DNA from: Candidatus Magasanikbacteria bacterium UBA922
GTDB taxonomy: Bacteria > Patescibacteriota > Patescibacteriia > Magasanikbacterales > UBA922
Assembly (NCBI GenBank): GCA_002293825.1
Contig: DBDW01000002.1
Coordinates: forward strand, 18,059 to 82,058
Direction of reading: 5' to 3'
Length of the DNA stretch: 64,000 nucleotides
Shown: positions 12,420 through 62,372 of the stretch, piece after piece
How positions within the stretch are numbered: position 1 is the first letter of the stretch
Layout: each line of letters opens with the position of its first letter
Notes under the pieces: generated by a model
Databases searched by the model: none
Told to the model about the DNA's origin: nothing
The model's input: the letters and a program-made list of their open reading frames with translations, nothing else
Translations under genes and position numbers: made by a program

Positions 12420-13388
12420 TTAAAACGTATAAATTTCTTCTTCAAGTTCGATTCCAAATTTCTCGTACACCACGGTCTTTATCTGAGCAATCAATTGACG
12501 CACATCATCTGCAGTAGCATTCCCTGTATTCACAATAAAATTACCATGCTGATCAGATATCAATGCTCCACCCACTTGAAGTCCCTTGAGTCCCGCCTGC
12601 TCGATGAGCCATCCTGCAGAAATTTTTCCAATACTCAAAAATTTTTGTACTTTCTCGCTATATTTATCAAAATGTTCAATGAGCTGCTCTCGGTATCTCC
12701 CCGTATCAGGATTCTGAAAAATACATCCCGTAGAAGCGTGTCCTTGTGGCTGTGTAGAATTACGATACATAAGATATTCAAGTGCATGTTTCAACAATTC
12801 CGTATCTTCAGTAGGCTCAAGCTTTAATACTACACGCAATACCACACCTCCAGAAACCTTGAACGCACTTGTGCGATACCCAAATTCACATTCACCAAGA
12901 CTAAGTTCTCGCACCTCTCCATTCTGATATACGAAGACCCGTTCGACTGAATCGCTCATATCAAACCCCATTGCCCCAGCATTACCACGCACAGCACCAC
13001 CGATAGTTCCAGGTACTCCCACTCCCCACTCAAATCCAGTCAACTGCTCTTTCATCGAAAAACGTGCAACTGAAACCGTGAGTGCACCCGCATCTGCAAA
13101 AATCAATGAGCCTTCGCGTCGAATTTCCTGATACGCGGGGTGCAATACCACTCCTTCAAATCCCTGATCACTCGCGAGCATATTTGACCCGCCACCAAGG
13201 ATCATATACGGAATACCTACCCCATCCAAATACCGCATCAACGCAACATGACCATCGAGCGTTTCCACCGACACAAAATACTGAGCAGGCCCACCTATCT
13301 TAAATGAGGTATGTTTCGAAAGCTGTTCATTCAGCTTGACCGCTCCATATTGTTTCAATTGTTCAATCAATTGGTTCATAGATTGCAA
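12420..13388 (-). CDS. murB: UDP-N-acetylenolpyruvoylglucosamine reductase MurB
   Basis: FAD-binding PCMH domain (FKIGGPAQYFV…ILGGGSNML) plus the MurB C-terminal domain. 322 aa. Confidence 0.85.
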   Translation of the reverse strand: MQSMNQLIEQLKQYGAVKLNEQLSKHTSFKIGGPAQYFVSVETLDGHVALMRYLDGVGIPYMILGGGSNMLASDQGFEGVVLHPAYQEIRREGSLIFADAGALTVSVARFSMKEQLTGFEWGVGVPGTIGGAVRGNAGAMGFDMSDSVERVFVYQNGEVRELSLGECEFGYRTSAFKVSGGVVLRVVLKLEPTEDTELLKHALEYLMYRNSTQPQGHASTGCIFQNPDTGRYREQLIEHFDKYSEKVQKFLSIGKISAGWLIEQAGLKGLQVGGALISDQHGNFIVNTGNATADDVRQLIAQIKTVVYEKFGIELEEEIYTF

Positions 13389-13457
13389 TTATACACAGAA
13401 ACAGCTATATTATCAGGAGTCAATATCTCTCGTATCAATTCGTATAACACAGTTTTT

Positions 13458-14684
13458 ATGCTCTCCCAGATTATCTACATTACCCGCGATATCGAACGAG
13501 CGCTTGGATGTCTCACTACGCCCTCTGTGTCCATTATCTCAAATGATTCAGACTTTGCCAAGTCAATCAAAGAACGCTATCCTAAGCAAATTTTTCTTAT
13601 TGAAGACAACAAAACATTAGACACATACGAACTTCTGGAACACCCAAAAACAACAGAAGTGCTTTCACACCTTACAAATCCTCAGATACTCGTATTCAAA
13701 AATACATCTCGAATCGAAAAATGGTGCGCCACAAATAACTACCCTCTTCTCAACCCTCCAGCAAAACTAGCAGCCTCACTCGAAGAAAAGCTCACTCAAC
13801 TTGAAACACTCGACGATCTCATCGAACTCATGCCTCGATACAAAAAAAAGACTATTGAGGATCTACATTGGTTTAGAGAACCATACATTATCCAATTCAA
13901 CCATTCACATACTGGTTCAGGAACAGTGCTGATTGATTCAGAAGAAAAACTGGATGAATTAAAAAAAGTATTCGCAAAACGCGAATGCCGTATTGCTCCG
14001 TTCATCAGCGGTCCTATTTTTACCAGCAACATTGTCGTTGGAATAGATGCTATATTGACCGGAAATATGAGTTACCAGATAACCGGCTTACAACCATTCA
14101 CCGACGAAACATTTGCTACTATCGGAAACGATTGGGGAGCTCCCTATAGTATACTAAACGATTCAGAACGAGCAGAATACGAACTCATTAGTCGTGAGAT
14201 TGCAAAAAAACTACAAAGTCTCAGATGGAAAGGATTATTTGGAATAGATGCCATTTGGAGTACCCAAGAAAAACGATGGTACGTCATAGAGATCAACGCA
14301 CGCCAGCCAGCAAGCGCTTCATACGAAAGCATGCTTCAAAAAAATACAAATTCCCAACCCTCAAATCTCACCATACTCGAAGCACATCTAAAAGCACTTC
14401 AAGGAGAATCTCTAAAAGAATATTCTCTCACTAAAATTACAGACGGTGCTCAAATTATTCATCGAGTTACAAAAAAAATCACATCACCTGAGCAAGCAGC
14501 ACACATGCTACAAAAACTTGATGAGCTTCGTTTTGAGACATGGAATACAAAAAAACTCACCATAATCCCATACGAAAACACAAGTCATAATAGCGATTTA
14601 CTTAGAATCCAATCAGAAAAAAGTATCATACACGGTGATGAATTTACTGAAGTTGGAGAAAAAATTTTGAAGATTATTCAATGA
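13458..14684 (+). CDS. ATP-grasp domain protein (amidoligase; not a canonical Ddl)
   Basis: C-terminal ATP-grasp core present (…WKGLFGIDAIWSTQEKRWYVIEINARQPAS…). The start was moved to the ATG at 13458 to avoid a 78-nt antisense overlap with murB. It lacks the Ddl N-terminal MKIAVLxGG motif. Confidence 0.6.
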   Translation: MLSQIIYITRDIERALGCLTTPSVSIISNDSDFAKSIKERYPKQIFLIEDNKTLDTYELLEHPKTTEVLSHLTNPQILVFKNTSRIEKWCATNNYPLLNPPAKLAASLEEKLTQLETLDDLIELMPRYKKKTIEDLHWFREPYIIQFNHSHTGSGTVLIDSEEKLDELKKVFAKRECRIAPFISGPIFTSNIVVGIDAILTGNMSYQITGLQPFTDETFATIGNDWGAPYSILNDSERAEYELISREIAKKLQSLRWKGLFGIDAIWSTQEKRWYVIEINARQPASASYESMLQKNTNSQPSNLTILEAHLKALQGESLKEYSLTKITDGAQIIHRVTKKITSPEQAAHMLQKLDELRFETWNTKKLTIIPYENTSHNSDLLRIQSEKSIIHGDEFTEVGEKILKIIQ

Positions 14685-14738
14685 GTTTTACCATATCTAT
14701 ATTCTCATTTTTATGAGAATAGTGACAGAAAAAGAAGT

Positions 14739-15506
14739 ATGCCCACAAAACACCTTTCAGACAATGCACTCGCTGTGCTCGACTCCTATGAACATTTAAA
14801 AATCGGTGAGAAAAAAATAAACACCCCTTATTTCAACAATCGCACCAGCAATCTTCGAGGTGCACTACGCGTACTCATAGGCAAAGGGACTGCTCAAGAA
14901 ATTATAGACGAAACACGTATTATCGCATTACGTGACAAACTCGAACTAGAAAACTTCGACGAAATAGAACTTGTAAAATTTCTCACTGATCATAAATTGG
15001 GCATTGATTGCTCGGGATTCGTATATTATATATTAGATGCAGAATTAAAAACACAAGGTAAAAGACTAAAACACATTCTTTCATTTACCTCAAAAAAAAT
15101 TTTGAGAAGATTGATCGCACGAATACGAAACGTAGAAAACACAAGCGTCCTCACCTTGCATGAGAACTCAATAGAACTTCCGCTAGAACAATGTGCACCT
15201 GGTGATATGATCATCTCACTCAGAGGTGGTCCACAACACGACTACAGTCACGTCATCCTCATAACCTCAGTCACCACAGACGAGAGTGGAAAACCCCTTT
15301 CATTGGAATACGCACATTCGTACCACTGGAAATCAGAAGGATTATATACCAAGGGAATTAGAAAAGGAGTCATTACAATAATAGACACCGCTCAAACAAT
15401 TCTAGAACAGACATGGGTCGAGGATGGAAAAACCGGAGAGCAAAATGAGACATGGCAACATCTCAGAGAAAGTCAGCATTGTTGCGTGTGTCGAATAAAA
15501 ACATAG
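14739..15506 (+). CDS. NlpC/P60-like papain-fold cysteine peptidase/amidase domain protein
   Basis: Catalytic Cys context GIDCSGFVYYIL and downstream His context PGDMIISL…HDYSHVILITSV resemble the NlpC/P60 Cys-His arrangement. No signal peptide is evident. Confidence 0.45.
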   Translation: MPTKHLSDNALAVLDSYEHLKIGEKKINTPYFNNRTSNLRGALRVLIGKGTAQEIIDETRIIALRDKLELENFDEIELVKFLTDHKLGIDCSGFVYYILDAELKTQGKRLKHILSFTSKKILRRLIARIRNVENTSVLTLHENSIELPLEQCAPGDMIISLRGGPQHDYSHVILITSVTTDESGKPLSLEYAHSYHWKSEGLYTKGIRKGVITIIDTAQTILEQTWVEDGKTGEQNETWQHLRESQHCCVCRIKT

Positions 15507-15521
15507 ATACTTAAATACAAT

Positions 15522-15950
15522 ATGCGAGAATCAAGACAAAGTCCTGTATGGGGCGGAGCTGCAGAAGAATGGATGCTGAAAAAAGAAAAGCACAAACAAG
15601 AAATTATCGCAGCGATCACAGATATACCGATATTATTTGATACCGACAACTTTCAAGATTTGATTGACCACCTAAACCTACTACAAGCAGGAGAAGTTGG
15701 AGATCTTCACATTGGCGAAAAAAACTATTCAATCCACACCATCAAAGAATTAATCAGTCTAACAATAGAAGATTTTTCAAAAGAAGGTAGAAGAGAAAAA
15801 GTGAATACGGGGGTAATACCAGATGAAAAAATAATACGATATTTAAAGGAACGAGGAATAACCGGAGGTAAAATACATGAGGAAAGTATCCAAGGATTCA
15901 GAGAATGTATACTCAAATGTATAAAAAATATGTGCAAAGACGAAACTTGA
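15522..15950 (+). CDS. hypothetical protein (third gene of the ATP-grasp/NlpC-P60 trio)
   Basis: 142 aa acidic ORF, 15 nt after the preceding stop and followed by a terminator. Confidence 0.4.
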   Translation: MRESRQSPVWGGAAEEWMLKKEKHKQEIIAAITDIPILFDTDNFQDLIDHLNLLQAGEVGDLHIGEKNYSIHTIKELISLTIEDFSKEGRREKVNTGVIPDEKIIRYLKERGITGGKIHEESIQGFRECILKCIKNMCKDET

Positions 15951-15975: not shown

Positions 15976-16006
15976 AGAATGGCTTAATATAGCCATTCTT
16001 TTTTAT
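15976..16006 (+). terminator. intrinsic terminator (stem agaatggc/gccattct + T6)
   Basis: agaatggcttaatatagccattctttttt lies directly after the 15522-15950 ORF. Confidence 0.6.
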
Positions 16007-16050
16007 TGAATCAAATTCGCATCTAGGCACCCTATACAGCTCACTATTAT

Positions 16051-17181
16051 ATGATCGTTGATCACACTTCTCTCGACCTCCTCCGCTCCATGATCGGTTA
16101 CGGAATTCTCGCATGTATCATTGCATTTCTCTGGGCACCACTCCTCACAAAAATTCTCTACAAATACAATCTCACCCGCCGACCCGAATATGATGCCACA
16201 CTTGCGATGGGAGCACGCAAAAGCAAAATCGGGGTTCCTGTTATGGGCGGACTACTTGTCATCGTCACGGTTGCAGTTTTAACAATTATATTTAATTGGG
16301 AGCGAAAATATACCTGGGTACCCATTGGCGTCATGTTGCTCTCTGCGTTACTCGGGGGTATTGATGATGTCATGAATATCTACGGACATCAGCGCCGTAG
16401 TAGAAAACTCGCACAAGTACTCCGACTGATCCGTGTACACAAAGAATGGAAGATGCGCTTGTGGTACACACTCACACTTCCCTGGTCGATCTTCAAACGC
16501 ACATCAGCATGGCTCTCAAAACACCCTGGTCGTGGAGTACATGTACATGAGAAATTATTATTACAGTTTATTGCCGGGGCCATCACTGCATGGTGGGTAT
16601 ATTTCAAACTCGGTGAAACATGGCAATCGATCCATATTCCCTTTGACGGATTTGTACATATCGGCTGGCTCATTATTCCACTCATTATATTCTTCGTCAT
16701 GTTTACTGCAAATGCAGTAAATGTTGCAGACGGTATGGACGGACTTGCAGGCGGCTCCCTTCTCATTACGTTTGCCAATCTTGCAATCCTAAGCTGGCTC
16801 GAAGGATACCAAGAAATTGCAATACTAAATACCATGGTTTCAGGTGCGCTTATTGCATACACATATTTCAATATCAAACCTGCACGATTCCAAATGGGAG
16901 ACGTAGGTTCGCTCGGACTAGGTGCACTCCTGGCAATCAACACGATCGTGATCAATCACATGCTCCTCCTCCCTCTCTTTGGTTTTATCTTCTTTGTCGA
17001 GCTCTTGAGTGTCGTGATCCAGATTATCGGTCGCTACACTCTCGGACGCCGTATCTTCTCCATGGCACCTATCCACCATCATTTTGAACTTCGCGGATGG
17101 AGTGAGGAAAAAACCGTGATGCGATTCTGGATCATGCATGCGGGAGCAGTATTACTCGGTCTCTGGATTGCATTGTACTAG
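16051..17181 (+). CDS. mraY: phospho-N-acetylmuramoyl-pentapeptide transferase MraY (GT4 polyprenyl-phosphate sugar-phosphate transferase family)
   Basis: 10-TM protein with the MraY/WecA motifs LLGGIDDVMNI, ANAVNVADGMDGLAGG and a C-terminal HHHFE. Sits in a peptidoglycan context (murB upstream, Mur ligase downstream). Confidence 0.7.
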   Translation: MIVDHTSLDLLRSMIGYGILACIIAFLWAPLLTKILYKYNLTRRPEYDATLAMGARKSKIGVPVMGGLLVIVTVAVLTIIFNWERKYTWVPIGVMLLSALLGGIDDVMNIYGHQRRSRKLAQVLRLIRVHKEWKMRLWYTLTLPWSIFKRTSAWLSKHPGRGVHVHEKLLLQFIAGAITAWWVYFKLGETWQSIHIPFDGFVHIGWLIIPLIIFFVMFTANAVNVADGMDGLAGGSLLITFANLAILSWLEGYQEIAILNTMVSGALIAYTYFNIKPARFQMGDVGSLGLGALLAINTIVINHMLLLPLFGFIFFVELLSVVIQIIGRYTLGRRIFSMAPIHHHFELRGWSEEKTVMRFWIMHAGAVLLGLWIALY

Positions 17182-17209
17182 CACAGAGCGAGACCAACAG
17201 AAAACACAA

Positions 17210-17878
17210 ATGCGTATGCCAAACTACCTTGCCTGGAAAAAACAAACTATCACCGACTTTTCTCCGGAAAATATCAGCGACATGTATGCTGATGGTTTTG
17301 TTTTTACACGTGAAAAAAAAGGTTCCATGGATCAGACACGAAGTGTACGAATCGATCTTTCAAAATTCAAACTTTCAAGTGAAAATCGTCGTATTCTCAA
17401 AAAAAATGATGAAATACACATAGAGACTATTCCTCTTCCCCATTCTGACTATCATTGGTCAATCGGTAAAATGGCAAAAGATTTTTACACCACCAAATTT
17501 GGTGATGGTACTTTTAGTGCAAACAAAACAAAAGAATTACTTACCAGTGCAGATGAAAGTAATTTCAACATGCTATTGAAATATTCGCACGATGAAGATG
17601 TGCTCGGCTACGCAATTTGTTATACGAATAATGAAATATTTCACTACTCATATCCATTTTATGAACTTACCAATGTTGCCGAGTTTACTAATATTGGAAT
17701 TGGTATGATGACCAAAGCAGTTCAGTGGGCGCAAGATACTGGTAAAAAATATATCTACCTCGGCTCAGCACAGCGCCCAACCGATACGTATAAATTTCAA
17801 TTTGAAGGAATTGAATGGTTTGATGGAGGAAAATGGACGGAGGATGTAGAAAAATTAAGAGATGCACTATCTAGTTAG
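17210..17878 (+). CDS. Ate1/Bpt-family aminoacyl-tRNA--protein transferase-like protein (GNAT fold)
   Basis: C-terminal region VQWAQDTGKKYIYLGSAQRPTDTYKFQFEGIEW matches the ATE_C signature (WAQExGxxYYYLGYYI…MxYKxxFxPxE). The start was trimmed to the MRMPNYL ATG. Confidence 0.5.
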   Translation: MRMPNYLAWKKQTITDFSPENISDMYADGFVFTREKKGSMDQTRSVRIDLSKFKLSSENRRILKKNDEIHIETIPLPHSDYHWSIGKMAKDFYTTKFGDGTFSANKTKELLTSADESNFNMLLKYSHDEDVLGYAICYTNNEIFHYSYPFYELTNVAEFTNIGIGMMTKAVQWAQDTGKKYIYLGSAQRPTDTYKFQFEGIEWFDGGKWTEDVEKLRDALSS

Positions 17879-18420
17879 TGATTGCTAAATTAATTTATAA
17901 AAAATTGAATATGCCAAGAAAATACGAAGGGGGTCCACAATATCCAGATAACGAGACAAAAAATTCTAAAAATGAAAAAAAAGTTAGTGTTGTCATTGAC
18001 AAAAACTACCTTGGACTAGAAGTGAATCACTTTGATCTACAATCACTTAACCCAAAAGTGGACATGTTGGGTAACGATAAATTTACAGAAGTTTTATTTG
18101 AAACTCAATCTGGCAACATGTATTTAATCTATCGCCTCCCAGACCATACGTTCGCAATCGCAGACGCAAAAAGCAACACAGGTAAAGGACTCAAACAAAT
18201 AAAAGGTAGTTTATTGTCTGACTCAGAAATAGCGAATGGCGTATTAGAAGTTGGAAAGAATTTTCATTTTGGTAAAGGTTGGCAGACTTCTCCTATATCT
18301 AAAATTACTTGTATCAATGGTAATAAAATATACGATGAAACACGAATACACGAACTCACAGGTGGAAAAAATTCCGACGCAAGGGATAAATTTAAAAATC
18401 GGATAAAACCTAAAAAATAA
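17878..18420 (+). CDS. hypothetical protein (GTG start overlapping the upstream stop by 1 nt)
   Basis: 180 aa, Lys-rich. Translationally coupled to the Bpt-like gene. Confidence 0.4.
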   Translation: MIAKLIYKKLNMPRKYEGGPQYPDNETKNSKNEKKVSVVIDKNYLGLEVNHFDLQSLNPKVDMLGNDKFTEVLFETQSGNMYLIYRLPDHTFAIADAKSNTGKGLKQIKGSLLSDSEIANGVLEVGKNFHFGKGWQTSPISKITCINGNKIYDETRIHELTGGKNSDARDKFKNRIKPKK

Positions 18421-18475: not shown

Positions 18476-19855
18476 ATGAAAATCCACTTCATCGGCATTT
18501 GCGGCGTAGCCATGGGAGGTCTCGCGCTCGCACTGAAAAAATCTGGTCATACAGTTACCGGCTCAGATAAAGGATTCTTTCCTCCAATTTCAACGTATCT
18601 GAAAGAACATAGTGTTCCCTATTATCCAGGCTGGCATCCTCTCAAAATGATCGAACACGGCACCCCTGACTTGGTCGTCGTGGGTAATGTGGCGTCTTCT
18701 ACCAATCCCGAATGGCTCTATGTACAAGAACATCAGATTCCGTATGTCTCCTATCCTGAGCTCATACAAAAATTCTTTCTAAAATCTCATTCTATTGTGT
18801 GTGCAGGAACGTATGGCAAGACCAGTTCGACGGCACTCATGGCAGAGATTTTGAGGGACGCCACTTACGATCCGAGCTACATGTTTGGCGGATTATCGAT
18901 CGACGGAGTACCAAGCGCTTCGATTGGATCTTCCGATTGGAGCGTCCTCGAAGGAGACGAATACAAAACAGCTCGATGGGACAACAGTCCAAAGTTTGCA
19001 CATTACAATGCCACTCATCTCCTACTCACTGCAGTAGAATGGGATCATGCAGACATTTACCCTACTGCAGAAAAATATGCAGAAACATTTGAAACACTTG
19101 TCCGGTCAATCCCCGTAAACGGCCTCTTGGTGCTATCTGAACGAGCGCACGAATATCATGACTATGCACAAAGTATGGTCGTGACCTACGGTCTCAGCGA
19201 ACACAATGATTACCAATTTTTTGACACACAAACATCATCATCAGGCATCACCTTCAAGATAAAACACCAATCTTCAGTATTTCACATCCAATCTCCTCTC
19301 CTGAGTGAATATCAAGCAGAAAATATTACTGGATGTTTCGCACTTGCTCATTCAATTGGAATTAATGCTGATTCAATTATTGCAAGTATTGCAAAACATC
19401 ACGGACTAAAACGACGAATGGAAAAACGATATGAAGGAGACATCACCGTAATTGACGATATTGCACATTCTCCCACCAAAGCAGCCTCAGCACTTGCAAC
19501 CATACGAAACATTACCGATGGAAAAGTTATTGCCGTATTCGAACCAAACACCGGCAATCGTCAACCGAGCGCAATCGAGGGATACGCACATGCATTCAAA
19601 GATGCAGACATCGTACTCATCCCTCGTCTCACTATTATTAAAACAGATAAAGCCGGAGGAGACGTCCCACTCACTGGTATTGATCTCGCACGCATTATTG
19701 GTAATACACATCCCAATGTGCACTATCATACTACTGACACAGCACTCATCACCACAATCATAGAGACTGCCAAAAGCGGAGACACCATTGCGTTTCTAGG
19801 AAGTCATGGATTTCGTGGAATGATCGAAGAAATCGTACGAAAGGTAAAAATATAA
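18476..19855 (+). CDS. murC: Mur ligase, MurC/Mpl family (UDP-N-acetylmuramate--L-alanine ligase or murein peptide ligase)
   Basis: N-terminal MKIHFIGICGVAMGGLALALKKSGHTVTGSD…FFPPISTYL. Central Mur ligase P-loop GTYGKTSSTALMAEIL, plus the C-terminal Mur ligase domain. Confidence 0.8.
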   Translation: MKIHFIGICGVAMGGLALALKKSGHTVTGSDKGFFPPISTYLKEHSVPYYPGWHPLKMIEHGTPDLVVVGNVASSTNPEWLYVQEHQIPYVSYPELIQKFFLKSHSIVCAGTYGKTSSTALMAEILRDATYDPSYMFGGLSIDGVPSASIGSSDWSVLEGDEYKTARWDNSPKFAHYNATHLLLTAVEWDHADIYPTAEKYAETFETLVRSIPVNGLLVLSERAHEYHDYAQSMVVTYGLSEHNDYQFFDTQTSSSGITFKIKHQSSVFHIQSPLLSEYQAENITGCFALAHSIGINADSIIASIAKHHGLKRRMEKRYEGDITVIDDIAHSPTKAASALATIRNITDGKVIAVFEPNTGNRQPSAIEGYAHAFKDADIVLIPRLTIIKTDKAGGDVPLTGIDLARIIGNTHPNVHYHTTDTALITTIIETAKSGDTIAFLGSHGFRGMIEEIVRKVKI

Positions 19856-19857
19856 CT

Positions 19858-20406
19858 ATGTCGATACCAGAACATGCTAAAAAAGTATTCACCGGACATA
19901 TCTTCGATGTCTATCACTGGGATCAAGAAATGTTTGACGGAAGTACTCAAACATTTGAAATGCTACGTCGTCAAGGCAGTGTGCAAATACTTCCCATTAT
20001 CGGAGATAAAATCATTATTGCCGAAGAAGAACAACCTAACCTATCAAAACGCTACGGACTAATCGGCGGACAAGTAGACGAAGGCGAAGATGCACATACC
20101 GCTGCAAAACGTGAAATGCTCGAAGAAATAGGCTATATTTCCAATGAATGGAAATTATTTCGTGAACGAAATCTATATACAAAAATAGACTGGACCGTCT
20201 CATGCTTTATTGCACAAAATGTACAAAAAAATATAGAGCCACAGCTTGATATTGGTGAACGGATCACCCCAATATTCGTCTCATTCGATGAATTCATGGA
20301 TGTGCTCATGCACGAGGATTTTCGATCAAAAGACTTGACGCTTGATATTCTCAAACTTCACTACCAAGGGAGACTGGAAGAATTTAAAAAGATGTTGTTT
20401 AACTAA
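19858..20406 (+). CDS. NUDIX hydrolase
   Basis: Nudix box GGQVDEGEDAHTAAKREMLEEIGY. Confidence 0.75.
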   Translation: MSIPEHAKKVFTGHIFDVYHWDQEMFDGSTQTFEMLRRQGSVQILPIIGDKIIIAEEEQPNLSKRYGLIGGQVDEGEDAHTAAKREMLEEIGYISNEWKLFRERNLYTKIDWTVSCFIAQNVQKNIEPQLDIGERITPIFVSFDEFMDVLMHEDFRSKDLTLDILKLHYQGRLEEFKKMLFN

Positions 20407-20529: not shown

Positions 20530-20697
20530 TTATTTCCCCTCATCCACAATTTCCGCCAAAACTTCACCCGCACTGTCGATATTGGTAATCATAAGTGTGA
20601 TACCACAGGTCTCGCACTCAATAATCTGATCTACTACCAGATTAGGATAGAGTGACAAATCGACATGATTTTTACATTCTAGACAGGTAAGAGTCAT
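20530..20697 (-). CDS. LysW/ArgW-like zinc-ribbon protein (55 aa)
   Basis: MTLTCLECKNHVDLSLYPNLVVDQIIECETCGITLMITNIDSAGEVLAEIVDEGK fits the LysW pattern (TCxxC…GExxxCxxCGxxLxV) plus an acidic tail, but it ends in K rather than the canonical …EDWGE. The internal ATG at 20695-20697 is taken as the start; the longer N-terminal extension looks non-coding. Confidence 0.45.
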   Translation of the reverse strand: MTLTCLECKNHVDLSLYPNLVVDQIIECETCGITLMITNIDSAGEVLAEIVDEGK

Positions 20698-20765: not shown

Positions 20766-21650
20766 ATGAAGACTCCACAACAATCTTATCAACAACTAAA
20801 CGATGCATTGGGAATTGAAATATATCTCAAACGTGAAGATCTCCATGCCTATGGTTCGCACAAAGGACGTTCGATCCCACACATGATCGAATACTATGCA
20901 AAAAAACAAAACCAATCATCATTCGTCATCTCGTCTTCGGGCAATGCGGCACGCGCGGCAATAAAATATGTGGTACTGCACAACCGAAATAATCCGACAC
21001 ACATCCTAACGCTCGAAGTCTATATCGGAAAAAAAATATCAGAAGAAAAACGGACCATTCTCGAAGCGGAGCGTGAAGGAGACCCACATATCACGATCAC
21101 TGAGACCGAACGCCCCAAACAAGAAGCATTTACCAAAGAAAAATCAGGTGAAGCCATAAATCTGAGACAATCTACCGACGACACAGCACTCGAAGGATAC
21201 TACGAACTTGGAAAAGAGCTTTCACATATTCCGAATCTTTCTGCAATTTTTATACCAACATCATCAGGAACTACCGCACAAGCACTTGGCACTTTTTTTG
21301 AAAAAAATAAATTACACCCTCAAATCCATAGTGTACAAACCGAAGCATGTCACCCAATCGCAGCATTCTTTGATACTGATTTCACCAAAACCACCTCATC
21401 GCTCGCACAAGCGATTGTCGACAACGTAGCTCACCGAAAAAACAATGTAATAGATGCAATACAAAAATCAAAAGGATCAGGCTGGGTAGCAACTGATACG
21501 GAAATACACGATGCAATCAATCTAATTAAAGATACGTGTAGTATTATCATCTCACCTACTGCAGCCCTATCGGTCGCAGGGCTCACAAAAGCACTCAAAA
21601 AAGGCTGGAAATTTGATGGTCCTGTGGTATGTCTTATTACAGGAATGTAA
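20766..21650 (+). CDS. fold-type II PLP-dependent enzyme (CysK/threonine-dehydratase/ACC-deaminase-like)
   Basis: PLP-lysine context LKREDLHAYGSHKGR and Gly-loop SSSGNAARA. 294 aa. Confidence 0.6.
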   Translation: MKTPQQSYQQLNDALGIEIYLKREDLHAYGSHKGRSIPHMIEYYAKKQNQSSFVISSSGNAARAAIKYVVLHNRNNPTHILTLEVYIGKKISEEKRTILEAEREGDPHITITETERPKQEAFTKEKSGEAINLRQSTDDTALEGYYELGKELSHIPNLSAIFIPTSSGTTAQALGTFFEKNKLHPQIHSVQTEACHPIAAFFDTDFTKTTSSLAQAIVDNVAHRKNNVIDAIQKSKGSGWVATDTEIHDAINLIKDTCSIIISPTAALSVAGLTKALKKGWKFDGPVVCLITGM

Positions 21651-21666
21651 TTGATATTTTTTGCCT

Positions 21667-24471
<2,805 letters not shown>

Positions 24472-58525: not shown

Positions 58526-59596
58526 TCATGATGAAGTGTGATCTTTCTTTGAAAGCCACAATCCAATCAACAACATAAGTACAAAAATAAATAACAACGC
58601 AATAAGTTGATGCTCTGCCTGAATAAATAAAGCAGTCATGCCAAACAACAATGAAATTGCATATAGCAATAATACCGCCTGTCGATGACTCAGTCCAGAC
58701 TCAATCAATCGATAGTGCAAATGTTCACGATCACCAATATAAACCGGTCGTTTCTTGATCACACGCATCACCATAACACGCACTACATCAATCATGGGAA
58801 TACCTATTACCATAAACGTAATCGCTATTTTACTCTTCGAGATTATCGCGAGACTCCCCAAAATAAATCCAGTCATAAGACTTCCACCTTCTCCTAAAAA
58901 TATTTTTGCGGGATTAAAATTCCATACCAAAAACCCAAGCAATGTACCTGCAAATATCAATGAAAGGAGCGCAACATTCGGATCAGACCATTGTGGCTGA
59001 ATAGAAACTGCATAAATTACAAATGCGGCAATTGTGACAATCCCCGAAACCAATCCATCAAGTCCATCTAGAAATTTGGTAGTAAACATCATACCAAAAA
59101 GCCACAAAAAGACGAGTGCATCAGCAAAAAGTACGATGTGTATTGCCGGCTCAATCATAATGGTAATATGGGTCAAATCAACCACTCCTCCAAACGGACT
59201 ACTGAATACCCCCGGAGCATTACCCAACACAACCATAACAACACTCGCAAGAATAGGTGCAATGATCTGATATCTCGGACGAAGAGTAAATTTATCATCA
59301 AGAATACCCCCAATCATGAGAAATAGAGAGCCCAAGCTTAATCCCACTAACGTCATTGAATTAAACGTGGTTCGAAATTCTCCATGAGAAAGCCAGACAA
59401 TTCCCGCGATACCAAAAAATACAGTATATACCGCAAGTCCTCCGCCAAGCGGAGTAGATCGTGTATGAATCTTGCGAGAACGCGCACCTGGTGCCCGATC
59501 AATTACACCATATCGTCGCATCAATATAGCCACGAGCCCCGTCACAATCACCGAACACACGAAAGCAATGGTAAAATAAATTCCGTATTCCAACAT
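58526..59596 (-). CDS. WecA/TagO-like UDP-HexNAc:polyprenyl-phosphate HexNAc-1-phosphate transferase (GT4 MraY/WecA family paralogue)
   Basis: Motifs DGLDGLVSGI and VGIPMIDVVRVMVMR. 10-11 TM helices. Second member of this family in the window, after mraY. Confidence 0.7.
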   Translation of the reverse strand: MLEYGIYFTIAFVCSVIVTGLVAILMRRYGVIDRAPGARSRKIHTRSTPLGGGLAVYTVFFGIAGIVWLSHGEFRTTFNSMTLVGLSLGSLFLMIGGILDDKFTLRPRYQIIAPILASVVMVVLGNAPGVFSSPFGGVVDLTHITIMIEPAIHIVLFADALVFLWLFGMMFTTKFLDGLDGLVSGIVTIAAFVIYAVSIQPQWSDPNVALLSLIFAGTLLGFLVWNFNPAKIFLGEGGSLMTGFILGSLAIISKSKIAITFMVIGIPMIDVVRVMVMRVIKKRPVYIGDREHLHYRLIESGLSHRQAVLLLYAISLLFGMTALFIQAEHQLIALLFIFVLMLLIGLWLSKKDHTSS

Positions 59597-59603
59597 ACTA
59601 TAA

Positions 59604-62372
59604 TTACATTCTAGATCGCTCAACACGAAGCGTAATACCTGGACCAAGCACAACTACATCTCTGCGACGTAATTCGCCCTTGAGCACCAAATTCGCAAGT
59701 TCATTTTCTACTCGATCCTGAATTGCGCGACGCATGGGTCGAGCACCAAAATCTGGATCAAAGCCTACTCGAGCCAATTCTTCTAATGCAGCATCTTCAA
59801 CTGTAAACCCAACCCCTTTTACCTCCAAATCTTGTGCAACCTGTTTCAACATAAGTCCTGCGATTTGTTTAATTTCAGAATTTTGAAGTGGTTTAAAGAG
59901 CACAATTCCATCAAAACGATTCAAAAATTCAGGACGATAGTAATTTTTGAGCTCGCCACGAATAAGTTCATCACGAATAGACCCAAGCTCAATACCCTGC
60001 TTCAAACGATCAGCAACATAGCTGGTACCCGCATTTGACGTTGCGATAATAATAGTATTGGTAAAATCTACCACCCGACCAGTACTATCAGTCAACCTAC
60101 CATCATCAAGTACTTGTAAAAACAAATTCAAAATATTACTATCAGCTTTTTCAAGTTCATCAAGAAGAACAAGAGAAAAGGGATGCTGTCGTACAGCTTC
60201 AGTCAAAATACCTGACCCTTGTATTCCAGGCTGGCCAATCAATCGATAAATCGCACTTGTATCCTGATATTCACTCATATCAATTCTAATCATACGATTT
60301 TCACCACCAAAATACACACGCGCAATCGTCTTTGCTAATTCAGTCTTACCGACACCAGTAGGTCCGAGAAATAAAAAGCTTGCAATCGGACGATTGTCAG
60401 AACGTATTTCAGCACGAGCTCGACGAAGTGCATTTGCCACCAATACCACCGCCTCACTCTGTCCGATAACCTGAGTATGCATCTCTTCTTCTAATTTTAA
60501 TAATTTTTCAGATTCAGAAGCTGTAATTGATGCCACTGGCACTCCTGTCTTCTCTGCAACTACAGTACCCACATCATCGGCCGATACTAATGTATGCTCA
60601 CCATGAGCACTTCGAGCATAACTACCAGCCTCGCTCATGAGTGCAAGTGCGCTTTGTGGTAAATTTTGATCAGTAAAAAACTTATGTGCAAGAATTACAC
60701 TCTTTTCAAGTGCATCATAAGAAAAAAACACGCGCGTTTGATATTCAATCGTACCTGCTTTTGACTCAAGCACTCGAATCGCCTGATTAATATCCATCTC
60801 ACGAATATCAATTTTTGAAAACACCGTCCCAATCTCAGAATGCGAAATTGTGCGCGCATACACATCAGGTAGCGTGGTAGCAAACATGACAAATCGCTGA
60901 CTTCTGAGATACTCAGCAAGAGATTCAGACACGTCCAACCCCTGCCCCTGTGCATCAGACACACCCATGAGATCATGAATATTATCAATAAAAAGTATAA
61001 TATTTCGAGCTCGAGTAACCTCATTCATAATACGAATCAAACGTTCCTGAGCTCCTGCAGCAGTAGTACCAGCAAGAAGTGATGTCGTAGAAATTTGCAC
61101 CATCCGCTTATCCTGCAATAATTTTGGTACATCTCCCCTAATCATACGTTCTACAAGACCCTGCACAATTGTCATTTTTCCCACACCATGATCCCCCACC
61201 AACATGATGTTACGCCCACCACCTTCGATAATGCGCAAAATTTCATCAATTTCCTGATCTCGAGCTACACACGTATCGATATCTCCATATTTTGCAGCAA
61301 TCGTAAGATCACGACTAAGCTGATTGAGTGCAGGAGTAGCTACCGCAGTCATTGCACGATCCATCCCATGTTTGGAAATTCCTGCTGCAGCACGTGCAAA
61401 AACATGATATTTTTCATACAATGTTTCCCGAATACGAGCCCATTCTATAACATTATCAAGTTTTACTTTATCGACCTCAAGGTCATAAAGCATTTCTTGT
61501 AACACTTCACTATGCTCGACCGTCGCTTTCAGAAAAGTGGTTGCCCGAATTAATGGATCACGATTGTTTCGAGTAATAAAATATGCACGAAAAACAACAT
61601 CTTCAGCGTCAGGAGCAAAAATAGGAGAAAATCGTTTTGGCGACTTATCTCCAAACAATTTTGCAATATGCGCCTGAAGTGCGCCAGCCTGAATTCGCAA
61701 TCTAACACAAATATTGCGCACACTATCTTCTGACAAAAGTGTATATGCGATATGTAGTGCAGTGACATGCGTATGCCCATATGCACGCGCAAGTTCAAAA
61801 CTTTTTTGTATCACTCGTTCAGACTCATGAGACAGGTATTTCGACATGTCAAGATATCGAGAACGACGCATATTTCTCACCTCTTCCCAGGTCGTCGGAG
61901 CAGAAGATACCGTATCAAGAACATTCTTCGAAAGAGGTATCCCATGATATAAAAAACGAATATGAGGAGTTCTCCCTCGAACAATTCGATACCACACATA
62001 CATAAGTCCTAAAAAACCAAGCCACACAAATGCTCGATAGGCATTCCCTGCAGTAGGACCAAACCAAAAAAGTAATGACAACAAATCTTCACTATGTCCC
62101 GCCCGATATGCATAATAAAAAAACCACCCAAAAAGAGCACCTGAACCAGTGAGTGCACCAACAATACGTAGCACATTCAATATTTTTCGACCTTTTCGTA
62201 ATTTGATTGCGTATTCAGTGTACTGCTCACCAAAATACACAAACGTCTCACGATCCAAAACACCCTGAATCATGCCCTGACACTGAGGACATACACGCCC
62301 TTTTTCCTTCCCTGTTCCCTGACACAGGGTACACACGAGAACAGGCAACGATGAAACTTTGGAAAAAAGCAT
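59604..62372 (-). CDS. ClpB/ClpC-like double-AAA+ chaperone with N-terminal DnaJ-type zinc finger and two TM helices
   Basis: N-terminus CTLCQGTGKEKGRVCPQCQG (two CxxCxG repeats), then hydrophobic segments (LRIVGALTGSGALFGWFFYYAY; FVWLGFLGLMYVWYRIV). Clp-N repeat present. AAA-1 Walker A GDHGVGKMT. AAA-2 Walker A GPTGVGKTELAK, followed by sensor regions. Confidence 0.75.
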   Translation of the reverse strand: MLFSKVSSLPVLVCTLCQGTGKEKGRVCPQCQGMIQGVLDRETFVYFGEQYTEYAIKLRKGRKILNVLRIVGALTGSGALFGWFFYYAYRAGHSEDLLSLLFWFGPTAGNAYRAFVWLGFLGLMYVWYRIVRGRTPHIRFLYHGIPLSKNVLDTVSSAPTTWEEVRNMRRSRYLDMSKYLSHESERVIQKSFELARAYGHTHVTALHIAYTLLSEDSVRNICVRLRIQAGALQAHIAKLFGDKSPKRFSPIFAPDAEDVVFRAYFITRNNRDPLIRATTFLKATVEHSEVLQEMLYDLEVDKVKLDNVIEWARIRETLYEKYHVFARAAAGISKHGMDRAMTAVATPALNQLSRDLTIAAKYGDIDTCVARDQEIDEILRIIEGGGRNIMLVGDHGVGKMTIVQGLVERMIRGDVPKLLQDKRMVQISTTSLLAGTTAAGAQERLIRIMNEVTRARNIILFIDNIHDLMGVSDAQGQGLDVSESLAEYLRSQRFVMFATTLPDVYARTISHSEIGTVFSKIDIREMDINQAIRVLESKAGTIEYQTRVFFSYDALEKSVILAHKFFTDQNLPQSALALMSEAGSYARSAHGEHTLVSADDVGTVVAEKTGVPVASITASESEKLLKLEEEMHTQVIGQSEAVVLVANALRRARAEIRSDNRPIASFLFLGPTGVGKTELAKTIARVYFGGENRMIRIDMSEYQDTSAIYRLIGQPGIQGSGILTEAVRQHPFSLVLLDELEKADSNILNLFLQVLDDGRLTDSTGRVVDFTNTIIIATSNAGTSYVADRLKQGIELGSIRDELIRGELKNYYRPEFLNRFDGIVLFKPLQNSEIKQIAGLMLKQVAQDLEVKGVGFTVEDAALEELARVGFDPDFGARPMRRAIQDRVENELANLVLKGELRRRDVVVLGPGITLRVERSRM

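What the first reader, a model, noticed from the sequence alone, without database searches (positions are those of the whole stretch)
13458..15950. ATP-grasp amidoligase + NlpC/P60-like cysteine peptidase + small acidic protein trio embedded in the cell-wall gene cluster
Between murB and mraY there is a 408-aa ATP-grasp enzyme that lacks the D-Ala-D-Ala ligase N-terminal signature. It is followed 54 nt later by a protein with an NlpC/P60-type Cys…His arrangement (GIDCSGFVYYIL … HDYSHVILI) but no obvious signal peptide. A 142-aa acidic protein follows, and then a terminator. ATP-grasp enzymes paired with papain-like or transglutaminase-like peptidases are the hallmark of peptide-ligation or peptide-tagging systems (amidoligase plus cognate hydrolase). 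Here such a module could either modify peptidoglycan stem peptides non-canonically or attach and remove a peptide tag on the small third protein.
Basis: partly seen in the sequence, partly recalled or inferred. Interest (0 to 1): 0.6.

Follow-up and report, generated by a model that had tools for sequence, protein, structure and literature searches.

The report
ATP-grasp ligase plus cysteine amidase pair
An uncharacterised ATP-dependent ligase and a papain-like cysteine amidase are always adjacent, and sometimes fused, beside the cell-wall precursor genes of at least 409 ultra-small (Patescibacteria) species, which suggests an undescribed step in how these bacteria build their cell-wall peptide.

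Summary
13458-14684 encodes a 408-aa ATP-grasp enzyme that is not a Ddl. 54 nt later, 14739-15506 encodes a cytoplasmic NlpC/P60-like protein. Its Cys91/His171/His193 are essentially invariant in 79 species. A 142-aa ORF and a terminator-like hairpin follow.

The "trio" is really a duo. In 80 related genome loci the C40-like gene is next to, or fused with, the ATP-grasp in 79; the one exception is cut by a contig end. 15 of the 120 best homologues are ATP-grasp-C40 fusions with almost no linker. The 142-aa ORF occurs only in the 6 closest relatives.

The pair usually sits in a conserved block: murB< ATP-grasp> C40> mraY> ATE-like> murC> (NUDIX>) LysW-like< PALP>. In other lineages the ATP-grasp carries a C-terminal NUDIX domain with an intact Nudix box.

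Best reading (about 0.45): a ligase/amidase module that makes and cleaves or edits one amide bond on soluble UDP-MurNAc-peptide precursors. It is analogous in architecture to glutathionylspermidine synthetase/amidase, but no homology to it was detected.

A glutamine amidotransferase, a non-orthologous Ddl and a carrier-protein cycle are not excluded. The substrate is unknown. I found no paper on it in the held library. It is a new variant of a known kind, with moderate-to-high interest.

The parts
13458..14684 (+). 408-aa ATP-grasp carboxylate-amine ligase of a Patescibacteria-specific family (PylC-type ATP-grasp_3, with an ExNxR motif 'EINARQ')
   Evidence: Pfam ATP-grasp_3 scores 23.9 bits against a gathering score of 23.2, and 42/47 family members match it. 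The AF2 model has pLDDT 93.3. Foldseek gives TM about 0.65 to PurK, biotin carboxylase and L-amino-acid ligase. D264, E278, N280 and R282 are invariant in 80/80 loci.
14739..15506 (+). 255-aa cytoplasmic NlpC/P60 (C40)-like cysteine amidase with a conserved N-terminal extension of about 85 aa; the obligate partner of the ATP-grasp
   Evidence: Cys91, His171 and His193 are conserved in 79/79, 77/77 and 76/77 loci. 26/43 homologues match Pfam NLPC_P60, 8 match CHAP and 8 match Amidase_6. The AF2 model has pLDDT 92.9. Foldseek gives weak papain-like hits that include Gsp amidase and NlpC/P60 hydrolases. It is adjacent or fused to the ATP-grasp in 79/80 loci.
15522..15950 (+). 142-aa mildly acidic ORF; a lineage-specific insert, not a conserved member of the module
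   Evidence: About 20 cluster representatives in 1.84e9 proteins. Found in 6/80 loci, both by phmmer and by a family profile. It occupies the same position in L096. No hits in Pfam, NCBIfam, PHROGs or PADLOC.
15976..16007 (+). Terminator-like hairpin (9-bp stem, 6-nt loop) followed by a T-run, after the 142-aa ORF
   Evidence: This is a consensus match only.
12420..13388 (-). murB, transcribed divergently from the ATP-grasp across a 69-nt spacer (context)
   Evidence: NCBIfam PRK13905 scores 282.5 bits against a cut-off of 259. murB precedes the ATP-grasp in 60/80 loci.
16051..17181 (+). mraY (context; follows the pair in 66/80 loci)
   Evidence: phmmer against E. coli MraY gives E = 1e-37. 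Pfam Glycos_transf_4. Synteny.
17138..17878 (+). ATE_C/arginyltransferase-like (aminoacyl-tRNA transferase-like) gene; context
   Evidence: NCBIfam arginyltransferase models match at E = 3e-15, below their cut-offs. Present in 58/80 loci. Fused to MurC in L008 and L086.
18476..19855 (+). murC/mpl-like Mur ligase (context)
   Evidence: TIGR01082 murC scores 244.8 bits and TIGR01081 mpl scores 241.3 bits, both below their cut-offs. Pfam finds the three Mur ligase domains.
19858..20406 (+). NUDIX hydrolase starting 2 nt after the murC stop codon. In other lineages a different NUDIX domain is fused to the ATP-grasp.
   Evidence: Pfam NUDIX E = 1.6e-10. At least 11/120 ATP-grasp homologues carry a C-terminal domain with an intact Nudix box.

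Best explanation
The ATP-grasp and the C40-like protein form one two-part cytoplasmic enzyme. In some species they are a single polypeptide. The enzyme works on soluble peptidoglycan precursors (UDP-MurNAc or UDP-MurNAc-peptide).

Proposed mechanism:
- The ATP-grasp activates a carboxylate as an acyl-phosphate and joins it to an amine. The most likely reaction adds an extra amino acid to the stem peptide. This could be an isopeptide or side-chain addition, as made by the PylC and D-aspartate ligase type of ATP-grasp.
- The Cys-His-His papain-fold partner hydrolyses the same bond, or a neighbouring gamma-glutamyl or isopeptide-type amide.
- The pair would therefore make and edit, turn over, or 'cut and re-ligate' one amide bond of the precursor.
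- The logic is that of glutathionylspermidine synthetase/amidase, transplanted into the Mur pathway.

Shown: both folds; conservation of the catalytic residues; obligate pairing and fusion; cytoplasmic location; conserved placement next to murB, mraY and murC.

Inferred: the substrate class, the bond formed, and the relation between the two activities.
For: Pairing:
- The C40-like gene is adjacent or fused to the ATP-grasp in 79/80 species-level loci. The exception is truncated by a contig end.
- 15/120 homologues are ATP-grasp-C40 fusions with a linker of 0-11 residues (sequences).
- These fusions are scattered on a crude UPGMA tree, needing about 5 state changes.
- The pair stays together where the rest of the block is absent (L091; L009) and where the C40 gene is inverted (L042, L053, L056 and others).

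Both proteins look active:
- ATP-grasp D264/E278/N280/R282 are conserved in 80/80 loci. C40 Cys91/His171/His193 are conserved in 79/79, 77/77 and 76/77.
- Both AF2 models have pLDDT of about 93.

Peptidoglycan link:
- The order murB< pair> mraY> ATE-like> murC> is seen in Magasanikbacteria-like genomes. A second lineage with different upstream genes keeps pair-mraY-ATE-murC-murD.
- At least 11/120 ATP-grasp homologues carry a C-terminal NUDIX with an intact catalytic box. In the window a NUDIX gene follows murC after a 2-nt gap.
- A Nudix UDP-X diphosphatase acting on Mur-pathway precursors is described next to murF in S. pneumoniae (PMC3655063, abstract listed). This fits a UDP-linked substrate.

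Type of ATP-grasp:
- 42/47 members match Pfam ATP-grasp_3 and 10/47 match ATPgrasp_ST, the 'sugar-transfer associated' model.
- The nearest folds include L-amino-acid ligases (3vot, 8ynd) and BesA.

Compartment and exclusions:
- No signal peptide or TM segment in either protein.
- No phage or defence family hits.
Against: - No substrate is identified. All functional inference rests on gene context and fold.
- Synteny in these small genomes is conserved in general. secA and hpf, which have no obvious functional link, are also conserved neighbours. Adjacency to mur genes is therefore weaker evidence than the fusions are.
- In some lineages the fused gene lies away from murB, mraY and murC (L091). 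PBP2, MreC and MreB genes are within 8 kb there.
- A ligase and a hydrolase acting on the same bond would be a futile cycle unless regulated. That is unexpected in roughly 1-Mb genomes.
- The strict 1:1 co-occurrence fits a heteromeric biosynthetic enzyme, such as an amidotransferase, at least as well.
- The C40-like protein resembles known NlpC/P60 structures only weakly (Foldseek E >= 3.6e-4, TM <= 0.5).
Confidence: 0.45

Rival explanations
1. Glutamine-dependent amidotransferase of a new type. The papain-fold C40-like subunit acts as a glutaminase; free Gln is itself a gamma-glutamyl amide. It hands NH3 to the ATP-grasp, which has activated a precursor carboxylate as an acyl-phosphate. The target could be the D-iGlu alpha-carboxylate, the DAP epsilon-carboxylate or a D-Asp carboxylate. 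This would be a functional analogue of MurT/GatD or of AsnB1/LtsA.
For: - The strict 1:1 pairing and repeated fusion with almost no linker are typical of synthetase-glutaminase pairs.
- The ATP-grasp carries the ExNxR motif (EINARQ, invariant). To my knowledge this motif is shared with carbamoyl-phosphate synthetase, biotin carboxylase and PurK, and its nearest folds are PurK and biotin carboxylase.
- The arrangement avoids a futile cycle.
- Papain-fold Cys-His glutamine deamidases are known (established knowledge: Cif, OspI, protein-glutaminase).
Against: - I know of no NlpC/P60-family glutaminase.
- No class I or class II glutaminase signature is present.
- No evidence for an ammonia channel could be obtained; multimer modelling was not available.
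- Whether these genomes lack murT/gatD or asnB-type genes could not be tested.
Confidence: 0.15
2. Non-orthologous dipeptide ligase. The ATP-grasp makes D-Ala-D-Ala, or another dipeptide used by MurF, and replaces a lost canonical Ddl. The C40-like partner trims or controls the dipeptide pool.
For: - The position beside murB and murC is where ddl often lies in other bacteria (established knowledge: murC-ddlB in E. coli, visible; MurC-Ddl fusions, NCBIfam PRK14573 listed).
- No Ddl-like ORF is present in the 64-kb window or in any of the 80 loci.
- The nearest folds include L-amino-acid (dipeptide) ligases.
Against: - Ddl absence from the whole genome was not testable.
- To my knowledge, most Patescibacteria are reported to have a complete peptidoglycan pathway; the one paper read here states only that the pathway is present (PMC9530719).
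- hhalign against E. coli DdlB aligns only the generic ATP-binding core (probability 64%, 129 columns). The N-domain and the D-Ala-binding part of the C-terminal region are not aligned.
- The idea gives no reason for an obligate, fused Cys amidase or for a NUDIX fusion.
Confidence: 0.1
3. Carrier or tag cycle on a small protein. The ATP-grasp ligates an amino acid to the C-terminus of a small protein and the C40-like amidase releases it, as in the LysX/LysK or the tubulin tyrosine ligase/vasohibin logic. The candidate carrier is the LysW-like zinc ribbon at 20530-20697(-), not the 142-aa ORF. The PALP enzyme would modify the tethered group.
For: - The LysW-like protein has an invariant C-terminal (I/V)(I/V)DEGK tail in 47/48 loci. 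Its Pfam Zn_ribbon_LysW score is 26.7 bits against a gathering score of 27.
- It lies in the same conserved block in 48/80 loci.
- To my knowledge, NlpC/P60 enzymes typically cleave gamma-glutamyl isopeptide bonds, which is the bond type LysK cleaves.
- 2/47 ATP-grasp members weakly match the Pfam TTL model.
Against: - LysW-like and PALP stay with mraY-ATE-murC where no ATP-grasp or C40 gene lies within 10 kb (L094).
- Conversely, the fused ATP-grasp-C40 gene occurs with no LysW-like or PALP gene within 10 kb (L091).
- The ATP-grasp is not of the RimK/LysX type.
- The tail ends in Lys, not in the Glu used by known carriers.
- The 142-aa ORF is not conserved.
- A NUDIX fusion is unexplained.
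Confidence: 0.08
4. A small-molecule conjugate synthetase/amidase unrelated to the cell wall, for example a thiol-polyamine or gamma-glutamyl conjugate as in GspSA. On this view the position next to mur genes is inherited synteny without functional meaning.
For: - The domain logic is the same as E. coli Gss, a papain-fold CHAP amidase plus an ATP-dependent synthetase (Gss annotation). Gsp amidase structures are among the Foldseek hits of the C40-like model (3a30, 3a2y).
- The pair can sit away from mur genes.
- Unrelated genes (secA, hpf) are equally syntenic.
Against: - No sequence relationship to Gss (hhalign probability below 1% for both domains).
- The pair-mraY-ATE-murC adjacency is kept in a second lineage with different flanks.
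- NUDIX fusions point to a nucleotide-linked substrate.
Confidence: 0.1

Closest known systems
Glutathionylspermidine synthetase/amidase (E. coli Gss; trypanothione synthetase-amidase)
   Same: One polypeptide, or a tight pair, that combines an ATP-dependent carboxylate-amine ligase with a papain-fold (CHAP/NlpC-P60 clan) Cys-His amidase. Both are cytoplasmic. Gsp amidase is among the structural hits of the C40-like model.
   Different: - The domain order is reversed: the ATP-grasp is N-terminal here.
- There is no detectable sequence homology (hhalign probability below 1%).
- The genomic context here is the Mur pathway, not thiol or polyamine metabolism.
- The C40-like part has an extra conserved N-terminal extension of about 85 aa.
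PylC-type ATP-grasp ligases (Pfam ATP-grasp_3), D-aspartate ligase (Aslfm/AslA) of peptidoglycan cross-bridge synthesis, and L-amino-acid ligases
   Same: - A three-domain ATP-grasp of about 400 aa.
- The Pfam ATP-grasp_3 match passes the gathering score.
- Structural neighbours include L-amino-acid ligases.
- D-Asp ligase is a precedent for an ATP-grasp adding a side-chain residue to UDP-MurNAc-pentapeptide (established knowledge; listed).
   Different: - Identity to any solved ATP-grasp is only 9-14%, and profile searches find no solved relative.
- A direct comparison with Aslfm was not possible.
- To my knowledge, none of these ligases has an obligate cysteine-amidase partner or a NUDIX fusion.
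NlpC/P60 (MEROPS C40) gamma-D-glutamyl endopeptidases, including cytoplasmic YkfC-type recycling enzymes
   Same: - The GxDCSG(F/L) catalytic-Cys motif at the start of a helix, with His and His on the following strands.
- 26/43 family members match Pfam NLPC_P60.
- No export signal, as for YkfC.
   Different: - The window protein itself scores below the Pfam gathering score (15.4 against 23 bits).
- There is a 50-residue insertion between the Cys helix and the sheet, and a conserved N-terminal extension with invariant PYxxN, GKG and Glu58.
- There are no SH3b or LysM domains.
- It is always coupled to an ATP-grasp.
[quoted passage not shown]
   Same: ATP-grasp superfamily. Its genes commonly neighbour murB or murC.
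   Different: - No Ddl model matches.
- Only the ATP-binding core aligns with E. coli DdlB.
- It is 100 residues longer, with a different N-domain and an ExNxR motif rather than the ExNxxPG motif I recall for Ddl.

Membership tests
ATP-grasp superfamily | Three-domain ATP-grasp fold | tested here: met
   The AF2 model has pLDDT 93.3. Foldseek gives E = 1e-17 and TM 0.65-0.67 to PurK, biotin carboxylase and L-amino-acid ligase.
ATP-grasp superfamily | Conserved Mg/ATP-binding acidic and Asn residues (D...ExN) and a profile match | tested here: met
   D264, E278 and N280 are invariant in 80/80 loci. Pfam ATP-grasp_3 scores 23.9 bits against a gathering score of 23.2, and 42/47 members match it.
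[quoted passage not shown] | Match to Ddl N- and C-terminal domain profiles (Pfam Dala_Dala_lig_N/C, NCBIfam Ddl models) | tested here: not met
   No Ddl family matches in Pfam or NCBIfam at E <= 1. 0/47 family members match one. The only related hit is a 57-residue stretch to the archaeal Ddl-like model at 19.8 bits against a cut-off of 500.
[quoted passage not shown] | Alignable D-Ala-binding N-domain and C-terminal substrate residues | tested here: not met
   hhalign of the family profile against E. coli DdlB gives probability 64% over 129 columns of the ATP-binding core only.
[quoted passage not shown] | D-Ala-D-Ala synthesis, or absence of another ddl in the genome | not testable with these tools
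   No ddl is found in the 64-kb window or within 10 kb (or up to the contig end) of the pair in the 80 loci. Whole genomes could not be read.
NlpC/P60 (C40) peptidases | Cys-His-(His/polar) triad in papain order, conserved in homologues | tested here: met
   Cys91 is conserved in 79/79 loci, His171 in 77/77 and His193 in 76/77. In the AF2 model Cys91 lies at the N-terminus of a helix and the two His residues lie on consecutive strands.
NlpC/P60 (C40) peptidases | Profile match above the Pfam gathering score | tested here: inconclusive
   The window protein scores 15.4 bits against a gathering score of 23, and P0115 scores 22.5. 26/43 homologues match at E < 0.01, the best at 9.8e-6. 8 match CHAP and 8 match Amidase_6, models of the same clan.
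NlpC/P60 (C40) peptidases | Structural similarity to solved NlpC/P60 domains | tested here: inconclusive
Glutathionylspermidine synthetase/amidase | Sequence homology of the amidase and synthetase domains to Gss | tested here: not met
   hhalign gives probability 0.7% for the C40-like profile and 0.1% for the ATP-grasp profile against E. coli Gss.
Glutathionylspermidine synthetase/amidase | Ligase and papain-fold amidase in one polypeptide | tested here: met
   15/120 homologues are fusions, but in the reverse domain order.
LysW/LysX amino-group carrier system | RimK/LysX-type ATP-grasp, and a LysW with a C-terminal EDWGE tail | tested here: not met
   There is no RimK or LysX profile match. 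The LysW-like protein ends in DEGK and is not always linked to the pair.
Glutamine amidotransferases | Class I (triad) or class II (Ntn) glutaminase domain | tested here: not met
   No GATase profile matches; the partner has a papain/NlpC-P60-like fold. Glutaminase activity itself cannot be tested with these tools.

The most novel reading that the evidence does not exclude
The pair is a previously unrecognised enzyme of the Mur pathway in a large Patescibacteria lineage. It would be one of two things. It could be a new class of glutamine amidotransferase, with a papain-fold glutaminase feeding an ATP-grasp synthetase that amidates UDP-MurNAc-peptide. Or it could be a non-orthologous replacement of a canonical step such as Ddl. 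In either case, the cell-wall peptide of these organisms would be built or decorated by chemistry not seen in cultured bacteria. This may involve the ATE-like aminoacyl-tRNA transferase that is fused to MurC in some genomes.
Probability: 0.25. Interest if true: 0.8.

Novelty: new variant of a known kind. Interest (0 to 1): 0.6.

Why it matters
Peptidoglycan precursor synthesis is among the best-mapped bacterial pathways and a major antibiotic target. Patescibacteria have almost no biochemistry behind their annotations.

A ligase/amidase pair is kept, and repeatedly fused, in at least 409 species with genomes of about 1 Mb. It lies beside murB, mraY and murC. It is therefore unlikely to be dispensable, and it implies an extra or altered step in making the stem peptide.

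Identifying its substrate would show whether these episymbionts make a chemically distinct wall or salvage host wall peptides. It would also add a new enzyme architecture to the Mur pathway.

The fused proteins (for example P0115, 678 aa) are soluble, single-chain and ready for expression, so the question can be tested directly.

Tried and rejected
**Searches that found nothing useful**
- Sequence and profile searches of both proteins against PDB sequences found nothing useful. The triose-phosphate isomerase hits at E of about 0.005 are spurious local matches.
- PHROGs and PADLOC gave no hits, so a phage or defence origin is rejected.
- Rfam and tRNA scans of the region found no riboswitch or RNA that could hint at a ligand.
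- Ten literature searches were attempted: one was rejected for term syntax and nine ran. None found a description of this pair. The lipocone paper and the MurD2/MurL review were read and are not about it. Iyer et al. 2009 on amidoligases is not held.

**Ideas tested and dropped**
- The 142-aa protein as substrate or partner was rejected on conservation.
- The PurK and biotin-carboxylase readings suggested by Foldseek were rejected as identities. Identity is 9-14% and no NCBIfam purK or accC match exists.
- The LysW-like carrier idea was tested by its neighbourhoods. It stays with mraY-ATE-murC rather than with the pair.

**Tools unavailable or exhausted**
- One homology search timed out and was repeated.
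- Extending the contig beyond the window to look for ddl failed, because the edge proteins are not on record under my start codons.


Full report
**What is in the sequence**

The window has about 40% G+C. Its proteins find their closest relatives in Candidatus Magasanikbacteria and other Patescibacteria.

Gene order on the + strand:
- 13458-14684: a 408-aa ORF. It is the long ORF 13311-14684 read from Met50, and the same 408-aa product is called in public assemblies (P0001).
- 54 nt later, 14739-15506: a 255-aa ORF.
- 15522-15950: a 142-aa ORF.
- 15976-15999: a 9-bp hairpin followed by a T-run.

Flanking genes:
- Upstream and divergent: a bona fide murB at 12420-13388(-).
- Downstream: mraY at 16051-17181.
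- Then an ATE_C/arginyltransferase-like gene at 17138-17878.
- Then an unknown basic 180-aa ORF.
- Then a murC/mpl-like Mur ligase at 18476-19855.
- Then a NUDIX gene at 19858-20406.
- Then a 55-aa LysW-like zinc ribbon on the minus strand (20530-20697).
- Then a divergent PLP (PALP) enzyme at 20766-21650.

The one correction is that the third protein is only mildly acidic (pI 5.6).

**The ATP-grasp**
- It passes the Pfam gathering score for ATP-grasp_3, the PylC-type model (23.9 against 23.2 bits). 42 of 47 family members match that model and none matches a Ddl model.
- NCBIfam gives no Ddl, RimK, LysX, PurK or cyanophycin-synthetase assignment.
- A family profile aligned to E. coli DdlB covers only the generic ATP-binding core (probability 64%, 129 columns).
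- A confident AF2 model (pLDDT 93.3) is a classical three-domain ATP-grasp. Its nearest solved structures are PurK, biotin carboxylases, L-amino-acid ligases and BesA, at TM about 0.65 and 9-14% identity.
- Profile searches find no solved relative.
- D264, E278, N280 and the following R282 (the EINARQ motif) are invariant in 80 species.
- It is therefore an active-looking carboxylate-amine ligase of an uncharacterised subfamily, and it is not a Ddl.

**The second protein**
- The window copy matches NLPC_P60 only weakly (E = 0.019).
- Of 43 homologues, 26 match NLPC_P60, 8 match CHAP and 8 match Amidase_6.
- The only PDB sequence similarity is the GxDCSGF catalytic-Cys motif of LytE.
- Cys91, His171 and His193 are invariant in my alignment. 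In 79 genome loci they are conserved in 79/79, 77/77 and 76/77.
- In the AF2 model (pLDDT 92.9), Cys91 starts a helix and the two histidines lie on consecutive strands. This is the papain/NlpC-P60 arrangement.
- Foldseek returns only weak papain-fold hits: IdeS/IdeC, E. coli Gsp amidase and NlpC/P60 hydrolases.
- An extra N-terminal region of about 85 residues carries invariant Pro30-Tyr31, Asn34, Gly48-Lys49-Gly50 and Glu58.
- Nothing suggests export.

**A duo, not a trio**

A scan of one genome per GTDB species found relatives of the ATP-grasp in 409 genomes, and 80 loci were retrieved. In these loci:
- The C40-like gene lies directly next to, or in frame with, the ATP-grasp in 79. The remaining locus ends at the ATP-grasp stop.
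- The 142-aa ORF is found in only 6, all among the closest relatives.

A full HMMER scan of 1.84 billion representative proteins finds about 20 relatives of the 142-aa ORF. A profile built from them finds no further loci. In other lineages this slot holds unrelated small ORFs.

Among the 120 best ATP-grasp homologues, 15 are ATP-grasp-C40 fusions joined with 0-11 linker residues. On a crude tree these fusions fall in several places.

The pair also persists together in three other situations:
- when the C40 gene is inverted;
- when the rest of the block is missing (L009);
- when the fused gene sits elsewhere in the genome (L091).

This is strong evidence that the two proteins work together, probably in physical contact.

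**Link to the cell-wall pathway**

The common order is secA< hpf< murB< ATP-grasp> C40> mraY> ATE-like> murC> (NUDIX>) LysW-like< PALP>.

Arguments for a functional link:
- A second lineage has different upstream genes (RsmI, DUF4015). It still keeps ATP-grasp, C40, mraY, ATE-like, murC, LysW-like, PALP and murD together.
- At least 11 of the 120 ATP-grasp homologues carry a C-terminal NUDIX domain with an intact Nudix box. In the window a NUDIX gene follows murC after a 2-nt gap.
- A Nudix UDP-X diphosphatase acting on Mur-pathway precursors is known next to murF in S. pneumoniae (PMC3655063).
- The ATE-like gene is fused to MurC in two loci.
- 10 of 47 ATP-grasp members also match the 'sugar-transfer associated' ATP-grasp model.

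Argument against:
- Synteny is conserved in general in these genomes, including for genes with no obvious functional link (secA, hpf).

I weight the fusions above mere adjacency. Together these points favour a nucleotide-linked peptidoglycan precursor as substrate. They do not prove it.

**Mechanism**

I commit, at about 0.45, to a ligase/amidase module acting on soluble peptidoglycan precursors:
- The ATP-grasp forms an amide through an acyl-phosphate. Most plausibly it adds an extra residue to the stem peptide, as PylC-type and D-Asp ligases do.
- The Cys-His-His partner hydrolyses the same bond or an adjacent gamma-glutamyl or isopeptide-type bond. Its role would be editing, turnover, or cutting salvaged peptides for re-ligation.
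- The closest known architecture is glutathionylspermidine synthetase/amidase. The relationship is analogy only. hhalign finds no homology and the domain order is reversed.

Rivals:
- A new kind of glutamine amidotransferase (0.15). It explains the obligate 1:1 pairing without a futile cycle and fits the ExNxR motif, but it lacks precedent for an NlpC/P60 glutaminase.
- A non-orthologous Ddl or dipeptide ligase (0.10). No ddl is seen in the window or in the 80 loci, but whole genomes could not be read, and this idea leaves the amidase and NUDIX fusions unexplained.
- A carrier or tag cycle (0.08).
- A small-molecule conjugate unrelated to the wall (0.10).

**The carrier idea**

While checking it I noticed that the LysW-like zinc ribbon has an invariant C-terminal (I/V)(I/V)DEGK tail in 47 of 48 loci. 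That is the signature expected of a carrier or acceptor tail. However:
- LysW-like and PALP stay with mraY-ATE-murC in a locus with no ATP-grasp or C40 gene within 10 kb (L094).
- The fused ATP-grasp-C40 gene occurs without them.

They therefore look like a separate conserved pair and are worth their own study.

**Novelty and verdict**
- No phage or defence family matches.
- No RNA element is present in the region.
- No paper in the held library describes the pair.
- Public annotations call the proteins 'ATP-grasp domain-containing protein', 'biotin carboxylase-like', 'C40 family peptidase' or 'hypothetical'.
- The kind of system, an ATP-grasp ligase with a papain-fold amidase, is known. This family, its Mur-pathway setting, its NUDIX variants and its restriction to Patescibacteria appear undescribed.
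- I rate it a new variant of a known kind, with interest 0.6.
- The main limits are that the substrate is inferred from context only, and that the genome-wide complement of canonical enzymes could not be checked.

Noticed in passing
window 20530-20697 (-) and 20766-21650 (+): A 55-aa LysW-like zinc-ribbon protein has an invariant C-terminal tail (I/V)(I/V)DEGK in 47/48 related loci. It always lies beside a divergent PLP-dependent (PALP, threonine synthase/dehydratase-like) enzyme. The pair stays with mraY-ATE-murC even where the ATP-grasp/C40 pair is not nearby. It looks like a carrier-protein system of unknown function.
   Followed up: partly
window 17138-17878 (+); L008 13782-15848; L086 5563-7758: An arginyltransferase (ATE_C)-like gene, possibly an aminoacyl-tRNA transferase, sits between mraY and murC in 58 of 80 loci. 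It is fused to the N-terminus of MurC in two genomes. This suggests a tRNA-dependent addition to peptidoglycan precursors by a non-Fem enzyme.
   Followed up: partly
window 19858-20406 (+); P0044, P0034 and 9 others: A NUDIX hydrolase gene starts 2 nt after the murC stop codon. In other lineages a different NUDIX domain with an intact Nudix box is fused to the C-terminus of the ATP-grasp.
   Followed up: partly
window 17878-18420 (+): A basic 180-aa ORF (pI 9.5) lies between the ATE-like gene and murC and matches no family. Other genomes hold different genes around here: L006 has a second 303-aa ATP-grasp (weak RimK/ATPgrasp_ST match) between the ATE-like gene and murC, and L010 has an unknown 285-aa gene between mraY and the ATE-like gene.
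   Followed up: no
window 58526-59653 (-) and 59604-62372 (-): There is a second GT4/MraY-like glycosyl-phosphate transferase. It scores E = 6e-5 against E. coli MraY, compared with 1e-37 for the gene at 16051. It lies next to a ClpB/ClpC-type AAA+ gene and near rsmH, which is at the end of the window.
   Followed up: no
window 21667-22794 (-) and 22795-24471 (+): A SAM-methyltransferase-NUDIX fusion protein lies back to back with a radical-SAM protein (Pfam Radical_SAM + Radical_SAM_C, with a faint GNAT match; it looks Elp3-like to me). A methyltransferase gene, with or without the NUDIX domain, beside the radical-SAM gene is conserved in related loci.
   Followed up: no
L093 13632-14349 (-): In this 771-kb contig the C40-like gene is split into two overlapping ORFs. 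This is either a frameshift or assembly error, or a pseudogene. It lies next to an ATP-grasp-NUDIX fusion.
   Followed up: no
L011-L090 record titles: Many of the genome records that carry this Patescibacteria-specific pair are titled 'uncultured Gammaproteobacteria bacterium' or 'uncultured Candidatus Saccharibacteria'. These look like submitter placeholder names rather than real taxonomy.
   Followed up: no
window 1-64000: GC skew is negative in every 2-kb bin across the whole window (cumulative -5.6). The whole stretch therefore appears to lie on one replichore, with the + strand C-rich.
   Followed up: no
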